Source: a virus. Taken from it: a DNA stretch of 64,000 nt. This document shows, piece after piece, positions 4,532 to 9,358 of this stretch. Location: the IMG/VR virus record IMGVR_UViG_3300021376_000042, positions 6,790 through 70,789 of that record; one strand, 5' to 3'. The notes beneath the pieces were generated by a model, which had not been told where the DNA came from, did not search any database, and saw only the letters and a program-made list of their open reading frames with translations. How positions within the stretch are numbered: position 1 is the stretch's first letter; each line of letters starts with the position of its first letter. A program made the translations under genes and the position numbers.

Positions 4532-5195
4532 TCATATTCGTCATGAGTTTCCGCAACTCTTGCAAGAAAATGCGGATGGTAAGCGAGTGTATATTGCGCC
4601 GAATGGAGAAAAGTATCCTTCAGTCACTACGGTGATTGCGGATCACGGTAAAGAAGCAATTCTTGAGTGGCGCAAGAAGGTTGGTGAAGAGAAAGCCAAC
4701 GAGATTTCGCGTAAGGCTACGACTCGCGGCACAAGCGTCCATAAGGTCCTTGAGGCTTATCTAAACAACGAAGATATATCGGGGTTCGAGATGATGCCGA
4801 ACGTCAAGTCTCTCTTTGTACGAATGAAGCAAGAGTTGGACGACAAGGTCAATAACATTCACTGCCTCGAAGATAAATTGTTCTCTCACGAACTTAAACT
4901 TGCTGGCACTGTAGACTGTATCGCTGAGTATAAAGGAGTTCTTTCGGTTATCGATTTTAAGACTTCTGTCAGACTCAAGAAAAAAGAAAACATCGGTGGA
5001 TACTTTATGCAGGGTGCTGCATATGCCACTATGTTCAATGAGATGGCGAATCTTAACATTGATCAAGTTGTAATCCTAATTGGCGTTGATACTGCCAATT
5101 TTTGTCAGACTATGATTGTTCGAGGCGAAGAACTAGCGCATCATCGCCAAGAATTGCAAAAATATATAGATGCATATTGGACAAAAGTTGCTTGA
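4524..5195 (+). CDS. PD-(D/E)XK exonuclease (Cas4-like phage exonuclease)
   Basis: YPSVTTV, RGT.VH, AGTVDCI, IDFKTS, Q..AY; GTG start overlaps the phoH stop. Confidence 0.85.
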   Translation: MFNHIRHEFPQLLQENADGKRVYIAPNGEKYPSVTTVIADHGKEAILEWRKKVGEEKANEISRKATTRGTSVHKVLEAYLNNEDISGFEMMPNVKSLFVRMKQELDDKVNNIHCLEDKLFSHELKLAGTVDCIAEYKGVLSVIDFKTSVRLKKKENIGGYFMQGAAYATMFNEMANLNIDQVVILIGVDTANFCQTMIVRGEELAHHRQELQKYIDAYWTKVA

Positions 5196-5220
5196 CTTTT
5201 GTTTGACAGTATGCTATACT
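5192..5220 (+). promoter_or_regulatory. Sigma70-type early promoter
   Basis: TTGACT-17 nt-TATACT with extended -10 TG. Confidence 0.75.
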
Positions 5221-5250
5221 AACTATGTCTGGTTTAAATTGGAGTTTCTA

Positions 5251-5661
5251 ATGAAATGCTCAAGTTTAGTTGTTATGTCTGCAATCCTCCTGATTGGCTC
5301 AACAACCGCAAGTGCACAGAGCAACGAAGATATCGACGTGTTGCTGGGTGCCGCTGCTGGAGCCGCAATTGGAAGCACTATCGGCGACGGTGATGGTCGT
5401 AAGATTGCAACAGTTGTAGGCGGATTGATTGGCGCAAATATGGCTAGAGATCGCAATGAGTATCGCTATACTGGCAATGAGTATCGCTATACTGGTCGAC
5501 GATTTGAATCATATTGTAAGGATCGCATTCCTAGTCAATATCGAAATAATGCTGGTGTTGCCCGTTCTTGGGTTTCTGGTTGCGTTCAAAGACTTGAGCA
5601 ACGTCAAGTTGAACTTGAACAACAAGCATTTGAGGAGGCTTTGAATGGACCTGCCAATTAA
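5251..5661 (+). CDS. Secreted glycine-zipper (2TM) protein
   Basis: Signal peptide, then LLGAAAGAAIGSTIGDGDGRKIATVVGGLIGA; ATG 5251 follows GGAG. Confidence 0.75.
   Translation: MKCSSLVVMSAILLIGSTTASAQSNEDIDVLLGAAAGAAIGSTIGDGDGRKIATVVGGLIGANMARDRNEYRYTGNEYRYTGRRFESYCKDRIPSQYRNNAGVARSWVSGCVQRLEQRQVELEQQAFEEALNGPAN
5453..5494 (+). repeat. Exact 21-bp tandem duplication (in frame)
   Basis: GCAATGAGTATCGCTATACTG x2, giving NEYRYTG x2. Confidence 0.9.
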
Positions 5662-5809
5662 TATCGATGAACTTCGTGATATTGTTGTTTCTCTTGAGAA
5701 GGATAGCAACTTTGAACTTGCAGATCGTCTCAAACTTGTATGCCGTCTAATAGAAGAAGGCAAACCATACAAGAAAATTCTCCGCGAAGAATACAATCTA
5801 GTCGCGTAA
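5645..5809 (+). CDS. Small hypothetical protein, 54 aa (not in ORF track)
   Basis: GAGGAGG SD; MDLPINIDELRDIVVSLEKDSNFELADRLKLVCRLIEEGKPYKKILREEYNLVA. Confidence 0.7.
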   Translation: MDLPINIDELRDIVVSLEKDSNFELADRLKLVCRLIEEGKPYKKILREEYNLVA

Positions 5810-5845
5810 TAGTCTCCATCAATCGTTACGATTGAATTAAATTAT
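5809..5845 (+). promoter_or_regulatory. Putative OxyR operator upstream of ahpC
   Basis: ATAG-N7-CAAT-N7-ATTG-N7-TTAT versus consensus ATAG-N7-CTAT-N7-ATAG-N7-CTAT. Confidence 0.65.
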
Positions 5846-5933
5846 AACACAACGCCGCGAAATGCCTCGCATTTTGCATATATACGTTTGTGTATAGGTT
5901 TTGTTTAGGGTCAAAGTTATAAAGGAGTTAAAC

Positions 5934-6512
5934 ATGAAGACAGTCGGCGATAAAATTGAAAAGTTTGTTGTAACTGGTGTAAAGCCAGGAGCACTTGAGC
6001 CTACTGATGCATTTGAAAATATTACAGATCTTTCTTTTGAAGGCAAGTGGAAGGTCATTGTTTATTATCCAAAAGATTTCACATTCGTATGCCCAACGGA
6101 AATTTTGGCATACGATAAGTTGAATAAAGATTTTGCTGATCGCGATGCGGTTCTTCTTGTCGGTTCAACTGACAATGAATTTTGTAAATTGGCTTGGAAG
6201 AATGCGCATGAGGGGTTGAAGAACACCACTTGCTGGATGTTTGCTGATACTCATCGCGATCTCGGCGATCATTGGGATCAAATGAGCGAAGGTCTTGTAG
6301 AGCAACTTGGAGTTTTCTTCAAGCCTGCTGGCGCTGCTCTTCGCGCAACATTCATTGTTGATCCTAGCAATGTGATTCAGCATGTGACGGTGAATAGTCT
6401 TGCAGTTGGACGCAATGCTGATGAGACTCTCCGCGTTCTTGACGCATTACAAACTGGTGAACTTTGCCAGTGTAATCGTGAAGTTGGTGGTAAGACACTC
6501 AAGGATCTGTAA
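5934..6512 (+). CDS. ahpC: 2-Cys peroxiredoxin (AhpC)
   Basis: YYPKDFTFVCPTE peroxidatic motif, RATFIVDP, GRN..E.LR..DALQTGELC; AAGGAG SD before ATG 5934. Confidence 0.92.
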   Translation: MKTVGDKIEKFVVTGVKPGALEPTDAFENITDLSFEGKWKVIVYYPKDFTFVCPTEILAYDKLNKDFADRDAVLLVGSTDNEFCKLAWKNAHEGLKNTTCWMFADTHRDLGDHWDQMSEGLVEQLGVFFKPAGAALRATFIVDPSNVIQHVTVNSLAVGRNADETLRVLDALQTGELCQCNREVGGKTLKDL

Positions 6513-6619
6513 TGAAGAACGGTCTCGAATTTATAAAGGAGTGGGGGTTGCTTTTAGTTCCTTTTATAGTTTTAGGTCTATTTTGGCTTGGTATACATTT
6601 TACAAACATTCTCTACTAA
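6512..6619 (+). CDS. Small single-pass membrane protein, 35 aa (not in ORF track)
   Basis: TAATG-coupled to ahpC; MKNGLEFIKEWGLLLVPFIVLGLFWLGIHFTNILY. Confidence 0.6.
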   Translation: MKNGLEFIKEWGLLLVPFIVLGLFWLGIHFTNILY

Positions 6620-6630
6620 AGGAAATACAA

Positions 6631-6879
6631 ATGAAAAAGTTTATTCTCGCTCTTGCTCTCGTTTCTGTTCCAGCATTGGCTCAGGATCGTGTAGCGCAAT
6701 ATGACTTTGACAAAGATGGCAAAGTTTCTTTTGAAGATGTGAATCGTTTCTGCACAGTTTCAAAGGCACTCTTTGATCGTGCTGATAAGAACAGTGATGG
6801 ATTCTTGACCAACGCCGAAATGCGCACTGCGAAAGAATATCTCTTTTCACGTTGCATGGAAATACCAAAGAACGGCTGA
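6631..6879 (+). CDS. Secreted EF-hand protein
   Basis: Signal peptide MKKFILALALVSVPALAQ; EF loops DFDKDGKVSFED and DKNSDGFLTNAE; two Cys; AAGGA SD. Confidence 0.8.
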   Translation: MKKFILALALVSVPALAQDRVAQYDFDKDGKVSFEDVNRFCTVSKALFDRADKNSDGFLTNAEMRTAKEYLFSRCMEIPKNG

Positions 6880-6916
6880 TACCTAAATATTGCTACCTTT
6901 AAAAAAGGAGTAAGAT

Positions 6917-7075
6917 ATGTCTGACGTGAAACAAGTAAAGTGTGGTTGTGGTCGTAGTCCAACAGGTTACTGCGTTGGTCTACATAAAATGACAAATGAA
7001 CAATATAAGGCTCATCTTGACCAACAGCAGAAATCATTGAACGAACAGACCAAACCACAATTTCTAGTTGATTAA
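6917..7075 (+). CDS. CDGSH-like iron-sulfur/zinc-finger protein, 52 aa (not in ORF track)
   Basis: AAGGAG SD; MSDVKQVKCGCGRSPTGYCVGLHKMTNEQYKAHL..., a Cys3His pattern resembling CDGSH. Confidence 0.7.
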   Translation: MSDVKQVKCGCGRSPTGYCVGLHKMTNEQYKAHLDQQQKSLNEQTKPQFLVD

Positions 7076-7318
7076 TGGTAGTAAACCTTTGACTAAAGGT
7101 GTTTCGGACGTGGGTTCGACTCCCACCTTCTCCACCATCGACGGGGAAGAAATGGCTTCGACGGGGCAAGTAATAACCCAAAGGCTACCCGAAAGGTGAC
7201 GAACGTAATTCGCACAAATCAAGTAAACGCAAACGATGATGTTTACGAAATGGCTCTCGCTGCTTAATTGCAGTATGAGATTACCAGAGTTGACCGCTTG
7301 GTAACAGAAAGGTCAGGA
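7076..7318 (+). ncRNA. ssrA: Circularly permuted (two-piece) tmRNA; acceptor piece about 7076-7137, coding piece from 7143; tag ANDDVYEMALAA at 7229-7267
   Basis: T-arm GTGGG-TTCGACT-CCCAC plus CTTCTCC-ACCA precedes GGGGAAG; these pair with a G3:U70 wobble; P2 pairings between pieces; tag ORF ending ALAA-stop; 3' pseudoknot. Confidence 0.93.
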
Positions 7319-7319
7319 T

Positions 7320-7346
7320 GGTGGGCGAAATGCCCACCCTTCTTTA
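7320..7346 (+). terminator. Terminator after tmRNA
   Basis: GGTGGGC-gaaat-GCCCACC followed by a T-rich tract. Confidence 0.65.
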
Positions 7347-7382
7347 TATTATGACACACACAACACACAAAGGAGATATAAA

Positions 7383-7625
7383 ATGACACCATTTGAAATT
7401 CGATTAGAATTAGTTAAGTTGGCAAAGGATATGCTTTCTGAGGAATATCATTCCAAAAGAAACATGGTTGAGCAAGAGTGGAACAATGAAGTTGGTGCTG
7501 CTATAAATGTTAGCAGAGAACCACCAAAGGCTCCGACTTTGCCAAACTATTTCTCAGAGCATGACGTCATTGCAAAGGCAATTAGCCTCAATGAATTCAT
7601 TTCTGGAAATAAGCAGTTCCTGTAA
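7383..7625 (+). CDS. Conserved phage hypothetical protein
   Basis: MTPFEIRLEL.K.AKDML pattern; AAGGAGA SD. Confidence 0.75.
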   Translation: MTPFEIRLELVKLAKDMLSEEYHSKRNMVEQEWNNEVGAAINVSREPPKAPTLPNYFSEHDVIAKAISLNEFISGNKQFL

Positions 7626-7639
7626 GACTCAATAGAGTC

Positions 7640-7672
7640 AGAGGGTGGTGGTGCGAACCACCACTCTTTTCT
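7640..7672 (+). terminator. Rho-independent terminator
   Basis: GTGGTGGT-gcga-ACCACCAC hairpin followed by T tract. Confidence 0.65.
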
Positions 7673-7699
7673 TTCCACTGCAATAATGGAGACCTAAAC

Positions 7700-8326
7700 A
7701 TGAATGCAGTAGATATATTACATCATGTAGAAAAATATTTTGATCGCAATCATAGTTTGTTTTGTATGTGGGGTGGGTTGTTCGCCTTTATCTTTTTTGC
7801 AATGTATGTACCATTCAGTATGGTAGATCGTATGCAAAACAAACTTGAAGCACAACAAAATGCTAACGTGCTTCTACATTCCGAAATTGAAACTCTCAAT
7901 CGCAAAGTTGAGTTTCTAAATCTTTCTTATGAAAGAAAACAAGCAGTCATGAAAGAAGTTGAATGCTTGGCTCGTAACATCTATTACGAAGCAGGATCTG
8001 AGCCACGCGCTGGCAAGATTGCCGTTGCTGAAGTCACAATGAATCGTGTAAAAAGTCGACAGTTCCCAAGAACTGTATGCGGTGTTGTCTATCAAAAGAC
8101 CAAAGGGACTTGTCAATTCTCTTGGGTTTGTGAAGATAAAAAAGGTATTCGCAGTCGTAGTATGTGGCGCGAATCATTGCAGATCGCTGAAAATATTTTG
8201 ATTTCTAAACAGAAGTACGGTATAATAGGTAACGCATTGTATTTCCATGCAGACTACGTTGATCCTGCATGGTCGAATCAAAAGATTTTGATAAAGCAAA
8301 TTGGCAATCACATATTTTATCATTGA
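7700..8326 (+). CDS. Membrane-anchored cell-wall hydrolase (SleB/Hydrolase_2 family)
   Basis: N-terminal TM and coiled coil; CLARNIYYEA.SE, VA.VTMNRV, CQFSW, YFHADYV.P.W, IGNHIFY. Confidence 0.88.
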   Translation: MNAVDILHHVEKYFDRNHSLFCMWGGLFAFIFFAMYVPFSMVDRMQNKLEAQQNANVLLHSEIETLNRKVEFLNLSYERKQAVMKEVECLARNIYYEAGSEPRAGKIAVAEVTMNRVKSRQFPRTVCGVVYQKTKGTCQFSWVCEDKKGIRSRSMWRESLQIAENILISKQKYGIIGNALYFHADYVDPAWSNQKILIKQIGNHIFYH

Positions 8327-8332
8327 GGTTTT

Positions 8333-9358
8333 ATGAGAATTATTGAAGACGTGAAGTTAGATTACAAGGATGTTCTCATTACACCTAAACGATCTACTCT
8401 TGCTTCGCGCAGTGAAGTTTCTCTTGAGAGAAAATTTAAATTCAAACATGGCGGTGAGTGGTCTGGCGTTCCAATTATTGCTGCTAACATGGATGGAGTT
8501 GGCACCTTTGAGATGGCTGAGGAACTCAACAAGCATAAGTGTTTAGTTGCTGTCACCAAACATTATCCTGAACATGATTTGATCAATCATTTCGCATTGA
8601 GATTACATAGCAGCATTTATTCCTTGGGTATCTCAGATGCTGATCTGCAGAAGTTCGATAATGTCTACTACTCTGCTGTTCTTCATCAAACTATGAAAGT
8701 TTGTGTTGATGTTGCGAATGGATATACACAAGCATTTGTTGATTTCGTTTCACGATTTCGCGACAAGTATCCATCAGCAATACTGATGGCTGGTAATGTT
8801 GTCACACCAGAAATGACAGAGGAATTAATTCTATCTGGTGTCGACATCGTGAAAGTTGGCATTGGTCCTGGCTCTGTGTGCACAACACGCAAGATGACGG
8901 GGATCGGCTACCCGCAGTTGAGTGCAGTAATTGAATGCGCTGACGCTGCTCATGGTCTCAAGGGTCATATCATAGCGGATGGAGGGTGTTCCGTTCCTGG
9001 AGACATTGTGAAAGCATTTGCTGCGGGTGCCGATTTTGTGATGCTTGGTGGAATGTTGGCTGGTCACAAGGAAGGTGGCGCATCTTCATTCGGTGACAAT
9101 AAGTTCTATGGTATGAGTTCAGATACCGCCATGGATCTTCATAATGGTGGTGTGGCTAACTATCGAGCAAGCGAAGGTAAGACAGTTGAGATTCCATATC
9201 GTGGAGAAGTAAGCAGAACACTACAAGATATTCTTGGTGGTCTGCGTTCGGCATGTACTTATGTTGGAGCGAGTGAATTGAAAGAGTTGAGTAAGCGAAC
9301 TACCTTTGTTCGTGTTACACAACAATTGAATAATTCCTTGAGTGCTTATGAGATCTAA
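8333..9358 (+). CDS. guaC: GMP reductase
   Basis: [46 protein letters not shown]. Confidence 0.93.

What the first reader, a model, noticed from the sequence alone, without database searches (positions are those of the whole stretch)
5809..7346. Putative OxyR-controlled stress cassette: AhpC, membrane peptide, EF-hand protein, CDGSH-like protein, tmRNA
Seen: ahpC (5934-6512), a TAATG-coupled 35-aa TM peptide, a secreted EF-hand protein and a 52-aa Cys3His protein run head-to-tail with gaps under 40 nt. The tmRNA acceptor piece begins right after the last stop codon (7075), and the first clear terminator is at about 7320. Two of these ORFs and the tmRNA are missing from the ORF track, and the EF-hand gene is given a wrong start. 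Inference: one transcript may couple peroxide detoxification, Fe-S/redox handling and ribosome rescue (oxidised mRNA stalls ribosomes), with the tmRNA processed out of a polycistronic mRNA. I know of no description of this combination in a phage.
Basis: partly seen in the sequence, partly recalled or inferred. Interest (0 to 1): 0.85.

Follow-up and report, generated by a model that had tools for sequence, protein, structure and literature searches.

The report
Phage tmRNA operon with swappable redox genes
An uncultured T4-like phage carries a working two-piece tmRNA that closes a tightly packed run of small genes, and in related phages the genes in front of it (peroxiredoxin, AhpD, rubredoxin, a CDGSH-like mini-protein, an EF-hand protein) are shuffled or absent, so this is a variable cargo slot and not a fixed peroxide-stress cassette.

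Summary
These are a 2-Cys peroxiredoxin (5934-6512), a TAATG-coupled 35-aa membrane peptide, a signal-peptide EF-hand protein (true start 6631) and a 52-aa Cys3His protein. A complete permuted (two-piece, betaproteobacterial-type) tmRNA runs from 7077 to the terminator at 7320-7338.

The window is an uncultured T4-like myophage. In related viral contigs the tmRNA is the constant element of a slot between a PD-(D/E)XK nuclease gene and a SleB-like hydrolase gene. Of 47 complete slots, 34 hold the peroxiredoxin and 13 do not. There are 30 gene orders, and the window's own order occurs in 2.

A conserved sigma-70-type promoter sits at the slot entrance (window 5192-5220). The tmRNA 5' end abuts whatever ORF lies upstream (TAAT|GG in 70 of 74 flanks) and has no conserved promoter of its own. 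A terminator follows. Co-transcription with processing is therefore the best reading, but no RNA data show it.

OxyR control has no support: no consensus match was found. Functional coupling of peroxide defence to ribosome rescue remains speculation. Phage two-piece tmRNAs and phage peroxiredoxins are both already published. The slot architecture and the mini-CDGSH-like family are the modestly new parts.

The parts
5192..5220 (+). Promoter-like site P1 at the end of the PD-(D/E)XK nuclease gene (TTGACT-17-TATACT, with TG before the -10). It is the likely start of the transcription unit.
   Evidence: The scan gives 10 of 12 matches. A site at the same place with a 17-nt spacer occurs in 20 of 23 unique relatives, with scores of 8-12 out of 12. 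Minimal slots L276 and L295 carry a perfect TTGACA-17-TATAAT whose -10 ends 222 and 210 nt before the tmRNA.
5251..5661 (+). Glycine-zipper protein with a signal or lipoprotein-like N-terminus. The start at 5251 is inferred; the mechanical ORF starts at 5170.
   Evidence: Pfam Rick_17kDa_Anti scores 36.7 bits. It is present in 26 of 47 complete slots.
5645..5809 (+). 54-aa protein of unknown family (p54). It overlaps the previous gene.
   Evidence: ORF. No Pfam or NCBIfam hit. Homologues occur in 25 of 47 slots.
5810..5933 (+). Conserved ahpC leader. It holds the inverted repeat TCAATCG-N3-CGATTGA (5819-5835), a variable hairpin region, a -10-like GCATATATAC (5876-5885), GTATAGGTTT (5892-5901, tandem in relatives) and a ribosome-binding site.
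   Evidence: Alignment of 18 unique leaders. RNAalifold finds no consensus RNA structure. The motifs occur only once in the window. The leader is absent in L025, L035 and L036, where ahpC follows p54 directly.
5934..6512 (+). Typical 2-Cys peroxiredoxin of the M. tuberculosis AhpC type (PxxxTxxC with Cys in FVCPTE; C-terminal ELCQCN).
   Evidence: Pfam AhpC-TSA E 4.7e-21. Best solved relative is 2BMX, M. tuberculosis AhpC, E 2e-40. NCBIfam AhpC equivalog scores 106 bits, below its cut-off of 272. At least 598 viral contigs encode relatives.
6512..6619 (+). 35-aa single-pass membrane peptide (tm35), coupled to ahpC by TAATG. An alternative in-frame TTG start lies at 6548 behind AAGGAG.
   Evidence: ORF. 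Homologues with a conserved C-terminus (…TFTNILY) but different N-termini occur in relatives. Present in 8 of 47 slots. Codon-position differences 85/47/133.
6631..6879 (+). 82-aa protein with a signal-peptide-like N-terminus (MKKFILALALVSVPALA) and two EF-hand loops.
   Evidence: Pfam EF-hand_1, EF-hand_5 and EF-hand_6 above cut-off, two stretches. Relatives start at the same MKK. Present in 25 of 47 slots.
6917..7075 (+). 52-aa protein with the invariant motif CxCGRSPTGxCxGxH (3 Cys + 1 His). It is a divergent CDGSH-like metal-binding mini-domain followed by a helix.
   Evidence: 52 clusters were found, 2 of them named CDGSH-type Zn-finger by JGI. Invariant residues are C9 C11 G12 R13 S14 G17 C19 G21 H23. 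A profile finds 647 representatives. 1 of 61 sampled members passes Pfam zf-CDGSH. The window protein itself has no Pfam hit.
7077..7137 (+). tmRNA acceptor piece: 5' strand of the long helix, T arm, 3' acceptor strand and an encoded CCA (7135-7137). It is preceded by a conserved TAAT (7073-7076), which contains the cys52 stop codon.
   Evidence: Rfam alignment. Covariation. TAAT occurs in 70 of 74 flanks.
7138..7142 (+). Intervening segment (TCGAC), which would be removed when the precursor is cut into two pieces. It is 4-5 nt here and up to about 90 nt in relatives.
   Evidence: Alignments.
7143..7343 (+). tmRNA coding piece. It comprises the 5' acceptor strand GGGGAAG (G3·U70), the tag reading frame 7229-7264 (ANDDVYEMALAA) with its stop at 7265-7267, the hairpin 7292-7314 and the terminator 7320-7338.
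   Evidence: ARAGORN. Rfam RF01850 over its full length. In the alignment 98.5% of cells are paired, and 13 pairs change on both sides, against 0-2 in the slid controls. Terminator scan.
7383..7665 (+). Context only: an 80-aa ORF (7383-7625) plus a second terminator (7647-7665). They look like an insertion between the tmRNA body and the terminator that most relatives have.
   Evidence: Relatives go straight from the tmRNA to GGTGGTGGTGCGAACCACCACC. Contigs of RNA-library runs join 7314 to 7643. p80 is present in few relatives.

Best explanation
The region is the accessory-gene slot of an uncultured T4-like myophage lineage, probably infecting a Gram-negative host of the betaproteobacterial kind. 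The slot lies between a conserved PD-(D/E)XK nuclease gene and a SleB-like hydrolase plus GMP-reductase pair.

Its constant parts are three:
- a sigma-70-type promoter at the entrance (window 5192-5220);
- a complete, functional two-piece tmRNA at the exit (7077-7343);
- an intrinsic terminator (7320-7338).

Between them the lineage carries a shuffled set of small host-like genes. These are a mycobacterial-type AhpC peroxiredoxin, its reductase partner AhpD (found only together with AhpC), rubredoxin, a CDGSH-like Cys3His mini-protein, a secreted EF-hand protein and small membrane peptides. This window has the order gly-zipper, p54, AhpC, tm35, EF-hand, cys52, tmRNA.

Inferred mechanism. The slot is transcribed as one early RNA. 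The mRNA part is translated. The tmRNA is cut out at the conserved UAAU|GG junction, where the last ORF's stop codon sits, and is split at the 5-nt intervening segment. By analogy with bacterial two-piece tmRNAs, RNase P would make the 5' end of the coding piece and trimming would expose the encoded CCA. The tmRNA would then be charged with alanine (G3·U70) and work with host SmpB to free stalled ribosomes and tag the unfinished proteins with …ALAA. The peroxiredoxin would remove peroxides using host reductants, because no AhpD is seen in this record.

Shown here: the features, their conservation, the modularity of the slot and the RNA covariation. Inferred: co-transcription, processing and all physiological roles.
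For: - **Phage identity.** Portal_T4 scores 565 bits, and a T4-type terminase, gp5 and a tail sheath are present. The nearest isolates share only about 50-53% portal identity: Melnitz, DLP6, Mosig and cyanomyophages. No integrase was found.
- **tmRNA.** ARAGORN and two Rfam models above threshold find it. Among 30 distinct relatives 98.5% of cells are paired, against 40-60% in the slid controls. 13 pairs change on both sides, against 0-2 in the slid controls, and 0 of 500 shuffles reach the observed values. The 5'-terminal helix covaries (U-A in 20, A-U in 10). The acceptor G·U is invariant in 30 of 30.
- **Linkage seen from the AhpC side.** A permuted tmRNA lies on the same strand within 6 kb in 44 of the 80 best AhpC loci. 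In 34 of them it lies downstream, 20 to 2279 nt after the ahpC stop.
- **Linkage seen from the tmRNA side.** AhpC is present in 34, the cys52 family in 26, the glycine-zipper gene in 26, EF-hand in 25, p54 in 25, AhpD in 22 (all with AhpC), rubredoxin in 16 and tm35 in 8. There are 30 gene orders.
- **Promoter P1.** It stands at the same place, with a 17-nt spacer, in 20 of 23 unique relatives. In the minimal slots L276 and L295 it is a perfect consensus about 210-220 nt before the tmRNA.
- **No promoter at the tmRNA.** The 90 nt upstream are unrelated between contexts. A positioned promoter-like site of at least 9 of 12 matches occurs in only 5 of 73 flanks, and the window is not one of them.
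- **Junction.** TAAT precedes the tmRNA in 70 of 74 flanks. An open frame of at least 40 codons ends 1 nt before the tmRNA in 34 of 74 and within 26 nt in 66 of 74.
- **Family assignments.** AhpC is closest to 2BMX. AhpD scores 125.7 bits on TIGR00777 and 33.7 on TIGR00778, above that cut-off of 27.8. Rubredoxin is called by Pfam.
- **Linkage is not inherited from bacteria.** None of 120 bacterial loci around permuted tmRNAs holds a homologue of any slot protein.
Against: - No transcript data are available. The RNA-library runs offered only assembled contigs with small shares, which cannot show ends, strand or a single transcript and may contain DNA.
- The 124-nt ahpC leader has a -10-like element and a hairpin region. 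It could be a second, regulated promoter or a partial terminator, so the unit may be split.
- L212 has a good promoter of its own aimed at the tmRNA 5' end (11 of 12 matches), so independent transcription exists in some lineages.
- Phage middle or late promoters of this lineage are unknown and would escape a sigma-70 scan.
- 13 of 47 slots lack AhpC, so any functional dependence between AhpC and the tmRNA is weak.
- The loci are related phages, so the counts are not independent events.
- The record is only 42% complete by CheckV. The absence of AhpD and SmpB is therefore not proof.
- The host is unknown.
Confidence: 0.6

Rival explanations
1. This is a single OxyR-controlled stress operon that deliberately couples peroxide detoxification (AhpC), Fe-S/redox handling (the CDGSH-like protein) and ribosome rescue (the tmRNA). 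The reasoning is that oxidised mRNA stalls ribosomes during infection.
For: - The cargo is enriched in redox and metal proteins: AhpC in 34, AhpD in 22, rubredoxin in 16 and the CDGSH-like protein in 26 of 47 slots.
- The ahpC leader is conserved and specific to this gene.
- It carries a dyad of the ATC-N9-GAT type, recalled as LysR-box-like, centred about 64 nt upstream of the start predicted from the -10-like element. No conserved -35 accompanies it (positions by my own count).
- AhpC and the tmRNA also lie within 6 kb of each other in more distant contigs with other gene orders: L048, L052, L058, L066, L070, L073, L075, L077, L080 and L081.
Against: - The OxyR consensus has 0 matches with up to 3 mismatches.
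- The leader is missing in L025, L035 and L036.
- 13 of 47 slots have the tmRNA without AhpC, and 5 have none of the cargo genes I searched for.
- 32 of the 80 AhpC loci show no tmRNA within the sequence held, and 4 more are cut within about 560 nt downstream of ahpC.
- Non-redox cargo also sits in the slot: a GDSL hydrolase, an FkbM methyltransferase and a 2OG-Fe oxygenase.
- There is no expression or peroxide data.
Confidence: 0.1
2. Neighbours only. The tmRNA is made from its own promoter, a phage-specific or weak one hidden in the end of the upstream ORF. The protein genes are unrelated accessory genes packed against it by genome compaction. The conserved TAAT is then the transcription start region and not a cleavage site.
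For: - L212 has TTGACA-17-TATAGT placed 9 nt before the GG, with TAAT in between. This shows that the same 5' end can be a primary start.
- Four more flanks have a positioned site of at least 9 of 12 matches.
- T4-like phages use middle and late promoters that my scan cannot see.
- The gene content upstream is highly variable.
Against: - The sequence upstream of the tmRNA is unrelated between contexts, and 68 of 73 flanks lack a positioned promoter-like site.
- In L035 and L057 only 20 nt separate the ahpC stop from the tmRNA.
- The 5' GGU(A/U)G is base-paired and covaries, so it must be in the RNA. That leaves the -10 inside unrelated coding sequences.
- P1 is conserved at the slot entrance even when the tmRNA is only about 210 nt away.
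Confidence: 0.25
3. The tmRNA is not a phage gene in use. It is host DNA at a prophage border, or an attP-type fragment left by integration into ssrA.
For: tmRNA genes are common integration sites, and fragments of them occur in prophages (PMC9004378, passages read; listing of PMC4383910).
Against: - The gene is complete under two full-length Rfam models.
- It keeps its pairing through compensatory changes across relatives.
- It lies between phage genes on both sides in more than 100 viral contigs.
- No integrase is present in the record.
- The phage is T4-like.
Confidence: 0.02

Closest known systems
Two-piece tmRNA (ssrA) of Methylophilales phage Melnitz and other aquatic phages (PMC9004378; abstract and passages read)
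   Same: - Both are T4-like aquatic myophages with a complete permuted tmRNA and no integrase.
- In both the tmRNA lies in an operon bounded by terminators and downstream of an early-type promoter.
- That paper counts 402 of 18,146 phage genomes with a tmRNA, and 53 of 133 unique ones as two-piece.
- Melnitz is among the nearest isolates by portal protein, at 52.9% identity.
   Different: - The Melnitz tmRNA is reported as alphaproteobacterial-type. It sits beside a glutamine riboswitch and upstream of a transcription coactivator.
- Here Rfam prefers the betaproteobacterial model, and no riboswitch family matches 5000-8500 at E up to 1.
- Here the tmRNA is the last element behind protein genes.
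- No close AhpC homologue turned up in Melnitz or the pelagiphages at E 1e-5.
- That paper's Table S1 (supplement, closed) could list phages with a similar neighbourhood.
Betaproteobacterial two-piece tmRNA (Rfam RF01850; for example Rhodocyclaceae, Accumulibacter, Dechloromonas)
   Same: - The permuted order, the helices, the T arm and the G3·U70 pair are the same.
- The tag begins AND and ends LAA.
- The nearest cellular sequences by nhmmer are Rhodocyclaceae loci, at about 63 bits.
   Different: - The phage tags are 12-16 residues (ANDDVYEMALAA and others), against 10 (ANDERFALAA) in most of those bacteria.
- The intervening segment is only 5 nt here.
- None of the 120 bacterial loci has ahpC or any other slot gene beside the tmRNA.
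M. tuberculosis AhpC/AhpD peroxidase system (AhpC structure 2BMX)
   Same: - 2BMX is the best solved relative, E 2e-40 over residues 3-189.
- The peroxidatic FVCPTE is shared, and so is the C-terminal ELC-x-C, which reads ELCASN in the solved chain.
- Relatives carry an AhpD-family gene right after ahpC, and never without it: 22 of 34 slots with AhpC against 0 of 13 without.
   Different: - This window has no AhpD (the record is incomplete).
- The phage protein has an insertion around residues 110-125.
- It fails the NCBIfam AhpC equivalog cut-off.
- The reductant is unknown.
CDGSH iron-sulfur domain (Pfam PF09360; mitoNEET/CISD2, bacterial 3TBN)
   Same: - Both have 3 Cys + 1 His in the order C-x-C…C-x3-H, with G-R-S after the second Cys.
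- Weak profile hits to CISD2 and 3TBN fall on the motif (E about 1).
- One family member, with CTCGRSKTGFCDDTH repeated three times, passes Pfam zf-CDGSH at 36.3 bits against a cut-off of 29.5.
- JGI names 2 of the 52 clusters CDGSH-type.
   Different: - The loop between Cys2 and Cys3 is one residue shorter (7 against 8; the canonical spacing is recalled).
- C-D-G-S-H is replaced by C-x-G-(L/W)-H.
- The window protein has no Pfam hit.
- Foldseek finds nothing for the model.
- Whether the metal is Fe-S or Zn is unknown.
Phage-encoded peroxiredoxins as auxiliary genes (for example cyanomyovirus S-SCSM2R, PMC12801897; passages read)
   Same: A T4-like aquatic phage carries a peroxiredoxin among genes read as relief from oxidative stress.
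   Different: - That peroxiredoxin is not reported next to a tmRNA; the word tmRNA occurs 0 times in that text.
- The peroxiredoxin here is of the mycobacterial AhpC type and is often paired with AhpD.
Bacterial operons in which ssrA is co-transcribed with upstream protein genes
   Same: The tmRNA is made from a longer transcript and matured by processing.
   Different: The upstream genes there belong to the same pathway (smpB, rnr). Here they are variable redox and metal genes in a phage.

Membership tests
Permuted (two-piece) tmRNA, Rfam RF04321 / RF01850 | Score above the curated gathering threshold over the full model | tested here: met
   RF04321 scores 144.2 bits against 47, model positions 1-213. 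RF01850 scores 136.3 bits against 84, positions 1-331. The own-genome search gives the same result.
Permuted (two-piece) tmRNA, Rfam RF04321 / RF01850 | Permuted gene order: the 3' acceptor strand with CCA comes before the 5' acceptor strand, joined by an intervening segment | tested here: met
   CTTCTCC-ACCA (7127-7137), then TCGAC, then GGGGAAG (7143-7149). ARAGORN flags it as permuted.
Permuted (two-piece) tmRNA, Rfam RF04321 / RF01850 | tRNA-Ala-like identity: a G3·U70 wobble pair in the acceptor stem, and a T arm | tested here: met
   The U·G pair at the third acceptor position is present in 30 of 30 sequences. The T arm is kept through 3 covarying pairs.
Permuted (two-piece) tmRNA, Rfam RF04321 / RF01850 | Tag reading frame with an Ala resume codon, a stop codon and a C-terminal degradation signal | tested here: met
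   GCA at 7229, the tag ANDDVYEMALAA and TAA at 7265-7267. Relatives' tags all end in LAA or MAA.
Permuted (two-piece) tmRNA, Rfam RF04321 / RF01850 | Cleavage into two RNAs, alanylation, and tagging together with SmpB | not testable with these tools
   No raw RNA reads were on offer. No SmpB gene is in the record, so a host SmpB would be needed.
Typical 2-Cys peroxiredoxin (AhpC/Prx1 type) | AhpC-TSA fold with the PxxxTxxC peroxidatic motif, the conserved Arg and a C-terminal resolving Cys | tested here: met
   Pfam scores 75.4 bits. The residues read from the translation are PKDFTFVC, LRATFIVD and ELCQCN. The alignment to 2BMX agrees.
AhpC equivalog (NCBIfam TIGR03137, the AhpF-coupled AhpC) | Score above the equivalog cut-off | tested here: not met
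   106.1 bits against a cut-off of 272. It should be called a peroxiredoxin of the AhpC/AhpD-type branch, not AhpC in the strict sense.
CDGSH iron-sulfur domain (PF09360) | Pfam model match, and the motif C-x-C-x2-(S/T)-x3-P-x-C-D-G-(S/A/T)-H (motif recalled) | tested here: not met
   The window protein has no hit at E up to 0.1. Its motif is CGCGRSPTGYCVGLH, one residue shorter and without D, G-S or P. Only 1 of 61 family members passes Pfam. It resembles the domain, but membership is not shown.
CDGSH iron-sulfur domain (PF09360) | Binds a 2Fe-2S cluster through 3 Cys + 1 His | not testable with these tools
   The four ligand-type residues are invariant in 31 of 31 and in 61 of 61 sequences. 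The metal is unknown.
EF-hand calcium-binding proteins | A pair of 12-residue DxDxDG-type loops matched by the Pfam EF-hand models | tested here: met
   EF-hand_1 scores 35.3, EF-hand_5 34.7 and EF-hand_6 33.6 bits, all above cut-off, with 2 stretches. The loops are DFDKDGKVSFED and DKNSDGFLTNAE. Lanmodulin scores 22.9 bits against 135 and is not met.
OxyR regulon promoter | An OxyR tetramer site (ATAGnTnnnAnCTAT-N7-ATAGnTnnnAnCTAT, recalled) overlapping the -35 region | tested here: not met
   0 matches with up to 3 mismatches in the whole window. OxyR sites of the unknown host could differ.

The most novel reading that the evidence does not exclude
The slot is a built-in oxidative-stress and translation-rescue module. 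On this reading the phage makes its tmRNA only as the 3' end of an mRNA for peroxide-defence proteins, so that ribosome rescue capacity rises in step with peroxide defence. The ahpC leader, with its LysR-box-like dyad, -10-like element and tandem GTATAGGTTT, would add redox control by a host regulator.

A related bold reading concerns the junction. The invariant UAAU|GG, which doubles as the stop codon of whatever ORF lies upstream, could be a cassette-capture point at which new genes are recombined in front of the tmRNA.
Probability: 0.12. Interest if true: 0.8.

Novelty: new variant of a known kind. Interest (0 to 1): 0.45.

Why it matters
Phage tmRNAs are known, but nobody has shown what they do or how they are expressed. 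This lineage is abundant in public data: at least 598 viral contigs carry the peroxiredoxin, and more than 119 carry this tmRNA type.

The lineage offers a clean comparative case. The tmRNA appears to be the fixed 3' end of an early operon, and its protein-coding cargo turns over quickly and leans towards redox and metal proteins.

If co-transcription and processing are confirmed, this would be a phage example of a stable RNA matured from the tail of an mRNA, with a defined junction (UAAU|GG) to test.

The CxCGRSPTGxCxGxH mini-domain has 647 representative clusters and is sometimes fused to EF-hands or phage structural proteins. It is a widespread, uncharacterised metal-binding module that would be worth a simple biochemical look.

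For annotation, the case shows that the small ORFs and the tmRNA are real and are missed by length-filtered ORF calling.

Tried and rejected
- **RNA evidence.** The run search gave 10 runs, all with shares of 0.05-0.07, and all held as contigs. I laid X2, X4, X5 and X9 at 85% likeness.
  - X4 has contigs with no differences at 7108-7172 and 7219-7312.
  - X9 record 28 covers 7070-7314 and has 88 further letters upstream that are unlike the window.
  - X2 record 5 (892 nt) joins 6491 to 7153 with only 26 letters on the shorter side, and joins 7314 to 7643.
  - X5 record 21 covers 6988-7100, only 24 letters into the tmRNA.
  - None of this counts as a bridging transcript. Contigs cannot show ends or strand, and DNA may be present in these libraries. 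Bins without cover (for example 6523-6664) say nothing.
- **Leader as an RNA element.** RNAalifold on 15 leaders gave 0 pairs. Rfam at E up to 1 found nothing in 5000-8500 except the tmRNA and a chance-level Ysr224 hit.
- **OxyR consensus.** 0 matches.
- **GTATAGGTTT and GCATATATAC as phage-wide motifs.** They are not enriched: 4 matches against 3.5 expected, and 3 against 5.2 expected.
- **cys52 fold.** The AlphaFold model has a mean pLDDT of 77.3. Foldseek against the PDB gave 0 matches. The profile search against PDB sequences gave only E of about 0.1-1.
- **Minus-strand 166-aa ORF (6681-7181).** It has no Pfam family and overlaps the tmRNA and two coding genes, so I take it as spurious.
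- **Cys-rich ORF upstream of ahpC in L058.** By eye it looks like an HNH endonuclease, but Pfam gives no hit, so I do not claim it.
- **My first regular expression for the tmRNA core was too strict.** It found 11 loci. I replaced it with nhmmer.
- **blastn of 5600-7700 against isolated phages.** The one weak hit is a Ralstonia record with a 62%-identical peroxiredoxin and no annotation. It may be host-like DNA.
- **Supplementary files are closed.** Table S1 of PMC9004378 was not seen.
- **Literature searches for the combination.**
  - 'two-piece tmRNA' + phage.
  - tmRNA + peroxiredoxin + 'phage genome' (3 papers, none on the linkage; one checked by passages).
  - phage-encoded + peroxiredoxin + 'auxiliary metabolic'.
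  - ahpC + 'auxiliary metabolic genes' + freshwater + phage (listing only).
  - CDGSH + bacteriophage (listing only).
  - None describes this slot. Subscription journals are not covered.

Full report
**What is there**

The window is part of a 70.8-kb IMG/VR virus record that CheckV rates 42% complete. It encodes a T4-type portal (565 bits), a T4-type large terminase, a gp5-like protein and a tail sheath. It is therefore a T4-like myophage. The nearest isolated phages share only about 50-53% portal identity: Methylophilales phage Melnitz, Stenotrophomonas phage DLP6, Pelagibacter phage Mosig and cyanomyophages.

All the features named in the finding exist at the stated places:
- a peroxiredoxin at 5934-6512;
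- a 35-aa membrane peptide starting in the TAATG overlap at 6512;
- an 82-aa EF-hand protein whose real start is ATG 6631, not the mechanical TTG at 6400;
- a 52-aa Cys3His protein at 6917-7075;
- one base later, a complete permuted tmRNA that ends in the strongest terminator of the region (7320-7338).

The three small ORFs have strong ribosome-binding sites. Against relatives they show an excess of third-position changes. That test leans towards coding, because tblastn chose the alignments.

**The tmRNA is real and in use**

ARAGORN and two Rfam models find it over their full length. The gene order is:
- acceptor piece, with an encoded CCA at 7135-7137;
- a 5-nt intervening segment;
- coding piece, with the tag ANDDVYEMALAA (7229-7264) and its stop.

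On an alignment of 30 distinct relatives, six helices are 98.5% paired, against 40-60% when partners are slid. 13 pairs change on both sides, against 0-2 in the slid controls, and none of 500 shuffles reaches these values. The G·U pair at acceptor position 3, the alanine identity mark, is invariant. The very first helix (GGUAG/CUACC against GGUUG/CAACC) covaries, so the RNA must include base 7077.

The record holds no SmpB and no integrase, though it is incomplete. Rfam prefers the betaproteobacterial model. The nearest cellular sequences are Rhodocyclaceae tmRNAs at about 63 bits. No close cellular donor was seen.

**What the proteins are**

- **Peroxiredoxin.** It has the PxxxTxxC motif, the conserved Arg and a C-terminal ELCQCN. 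Its best solved relative is M. tuberculosis AhpC (2BMX, E 2e-40). It fails the NCBIfam AhpC equivalog cut-off.
- **AhpD and rubredoxin in relatives.** Many relatives carry an AhpD-family gene directly after ahpC (TIGR00777 at 125.7 bits; TIGR00778 above its cut-off). Many also carry a 50-aa rubredoxin. This window and its record have no AhpD.
- **The 52-aa protein.** It belongs to a sharply defined family with the invariant motif CxCGRSPTGxCxGxH. A profile of it finds 647 representative clusters. Of 61 sampled members, 59 carry the motif and two are fused to EF-hands. Others sit in larger proteins, one of them with a phage baseplate-wedge domain. One member, with the variant CTCGRSKTGFCDDTH in three copies, passes Pfam zf-CDGSH. 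'CDGSH-like' is a fair description, but membership is not shown. The window protein has no Pfam hit, its loop is one residue shorter, and fold search gave nothing.

**The comparative picture changes the interpretation**

Starting from the peroxiredoxin, at least 598 viral contigs encode relatives. Among the best 80, a permuted tmRNA lies on the same strand within the held flanks in 44. In 34 of them it lies downstream, 20 to 2279 nt after the ahpC stop, and the space is filled by different small ORFs.

Starting from the tmRNA gives the less biased sample:
- 34 of the 47 contain the peroxiredoxin and 13 do not.
- AhpD is found in 22, always together with AhpC.
- The cys52 family is in 26, EF-hand in 25, rubredoxin in 16 and tm35 in 8.
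- There are 30 different gene orders. The window's own order occurs twice.
- Five slots have none of the cargo genes I searched for.

The tmRNA is therefore the anchor, and the protein genes are exchangeable cargo with a clear lean towards redox and metal proteins. None of 120 bacterial loci around permuted tmRNAs has any of these genes nearby, so the neighbourhood is a phage feature.

**How it is probably expressed**

A sigma-70-type promoter lies at the end of the PD-(D/E)XK gene (window 5192-5220, TTGACT-17-TATACT). A site at the same place with a 17-nt spacer is present in 20 of 23 unique relatives. In the minimal slots L276 and L295 it is a perfect consensus whose -10 ends 222 and 210 nt before the tmRNA.

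In front of the tmRNA the picture is different:
- The upstream 90 nt are unrelated between contexts.
- Only 5 of 73 flanks have a promoter-like site placed to start at the tmRNA, and the window is not among them.
- TAAT precedes the tmRNA in 70 of 74 flanks.
- An open frame ends exactly 1 nt before the tmRNA in 34 of 74 flanks and within 26 nt in 66 of 74.
- A terminator hairpin follows the tmRNA and is kept through compensatory changes.

The simplest reading is one early transcript, P1-cargo-tmRNA-terminator, from which the tmRNA is cut at UAAU|GG. Two things count against a simple picture:
- L212 has its own good promoter aimed at the same 5' end. The junction can therefore also be a primary start.
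- The 124-nt ahpC leader may hold a second, regulated promoter or a partial terminator.

That leader is conserved in sequence but has no consensus RNA fold. It contains a 7+7 inverted repeat, a -10-like element without a conserved -35, and a tandem GTATAGGTTT. It is missing where ahpC follows p54 directly (L025, L035, L036). It does not match the OxyR consensus. Control by some host regulator is possible but unshown.

RNA-library runs offered only contigs with small shares. They are compatible with expression of the tmRNA and of the peroxiredoxin in relatives, but they prove no joint transcript.

**Comparison with what is known**

- Two-piece tmRNAs in aquatic phages are published. The Melnitz paper describes one in an operon behind an early promoter, and counts 53 two-piece forms among 133 unique phage tmRNAs (PMC9004378, abstract and passages read).
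- Phage peroxiredoxins are also published (PMC12801897, passages read).
- My five literature searches found no description of a tmRNA-anchored slot with AhpC/AhpD, rubredoxin and CDGSH-like cargo. The library lacks most subscription journals, and supplements were closed.

**Verdict**

It is wrong or unsupported on OxyR control, on the cassette being a unit, and on the novelty of a phage tmRNA. The finding is a new variant of known things. It is of moderate interest, mainly for the expression mode of the tmRNA and for the uncharacterised mini-CDGSH-like family.

Noticed in passing
L051-L053, L055, L058, L061-L063, L066, L070 (for example L058:7315-7391): More distant phage contigs that carry the peroxiredoxin also carry a tRNA with anticodon CUA, which ARAGORN labels 'tRNA-Pyl (cta)'. 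It looks like an amber suppressor and hints at TAG recoding in those phages.
   Followed up: no
window 7315-7665; L020, L021, L036: The 80-aa ORF with its own terminator looks like an insertion between the tmRNA body and the ancestral terminator. The ancestral hairpin (GGTGGTGCGAACCACCAC) now sits at 7647-7665. RNA-library contigs of relatives join 7314 to 7643. L020, L021 and L036 show a second partial copy of the tmRNA 3' part about 230 nt downstream.
   Followed up: partly
L094 (1550-bp contig binned as an Ignavibacteriaceae MAG): It carries a permuted tmRNA with the identical tag ANDDVYEMALAA (99.5 bits to the window's tmRNA). It is most likely a fragment of this phage lineage binned into a bacterial MAG by mistake.
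   Followed up: partly
L119, L120, L134, L140, L149, L161 (Stenotrophomonas genomes); L117, L155, L160: These are bacteria expected to have one-piece tmRNAs, yet they show permuted tmRNA genes with unusual long tags (for example ANADYYDQNEQDTLLAA). They may be prophage-borne second copies.
   Followed up: no
P0221, P0206 (hits of the cys52 profile): These proteins fuse an N-terminal membrane helix, the CxCGRSxTGxCxGLH motif and one or two EF-hand loops. They make up 2 of 61 sampled members. This is a domain-fusion hint that the neighbouring EF-hand and cys52 genes work together.
   Followed up: partly
L058:4436-5449: A distant phage contig encodes a full Gram-negative porin (Porin_4, 150.9 bits) between its tmRNA and its AhpC-AhpD pair.
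   Followed up: no
window 8333-9358: A phage-encoded GMP reductase (IMPDH/GMPR domain, 225.9 bits). It is conserved at 82-84% identity in the close relatives just downstream of the slot, and is also found in Xanthomonas, Stenotrophomonas and Caulobacter jumbo or T4-like phages.
   Followed up: partly
window 5819-5901: The ahpC leader has a perfect 7+7 inverted repeat (ATC-N9-GAT type), centred about 64 nt before the start predicted from the -10-like element. A tandem GTATAGGTTT sits right at that predicted start. The layout resembles an activator-dependent promoter, but it is unassigned.
   Followed up: partly
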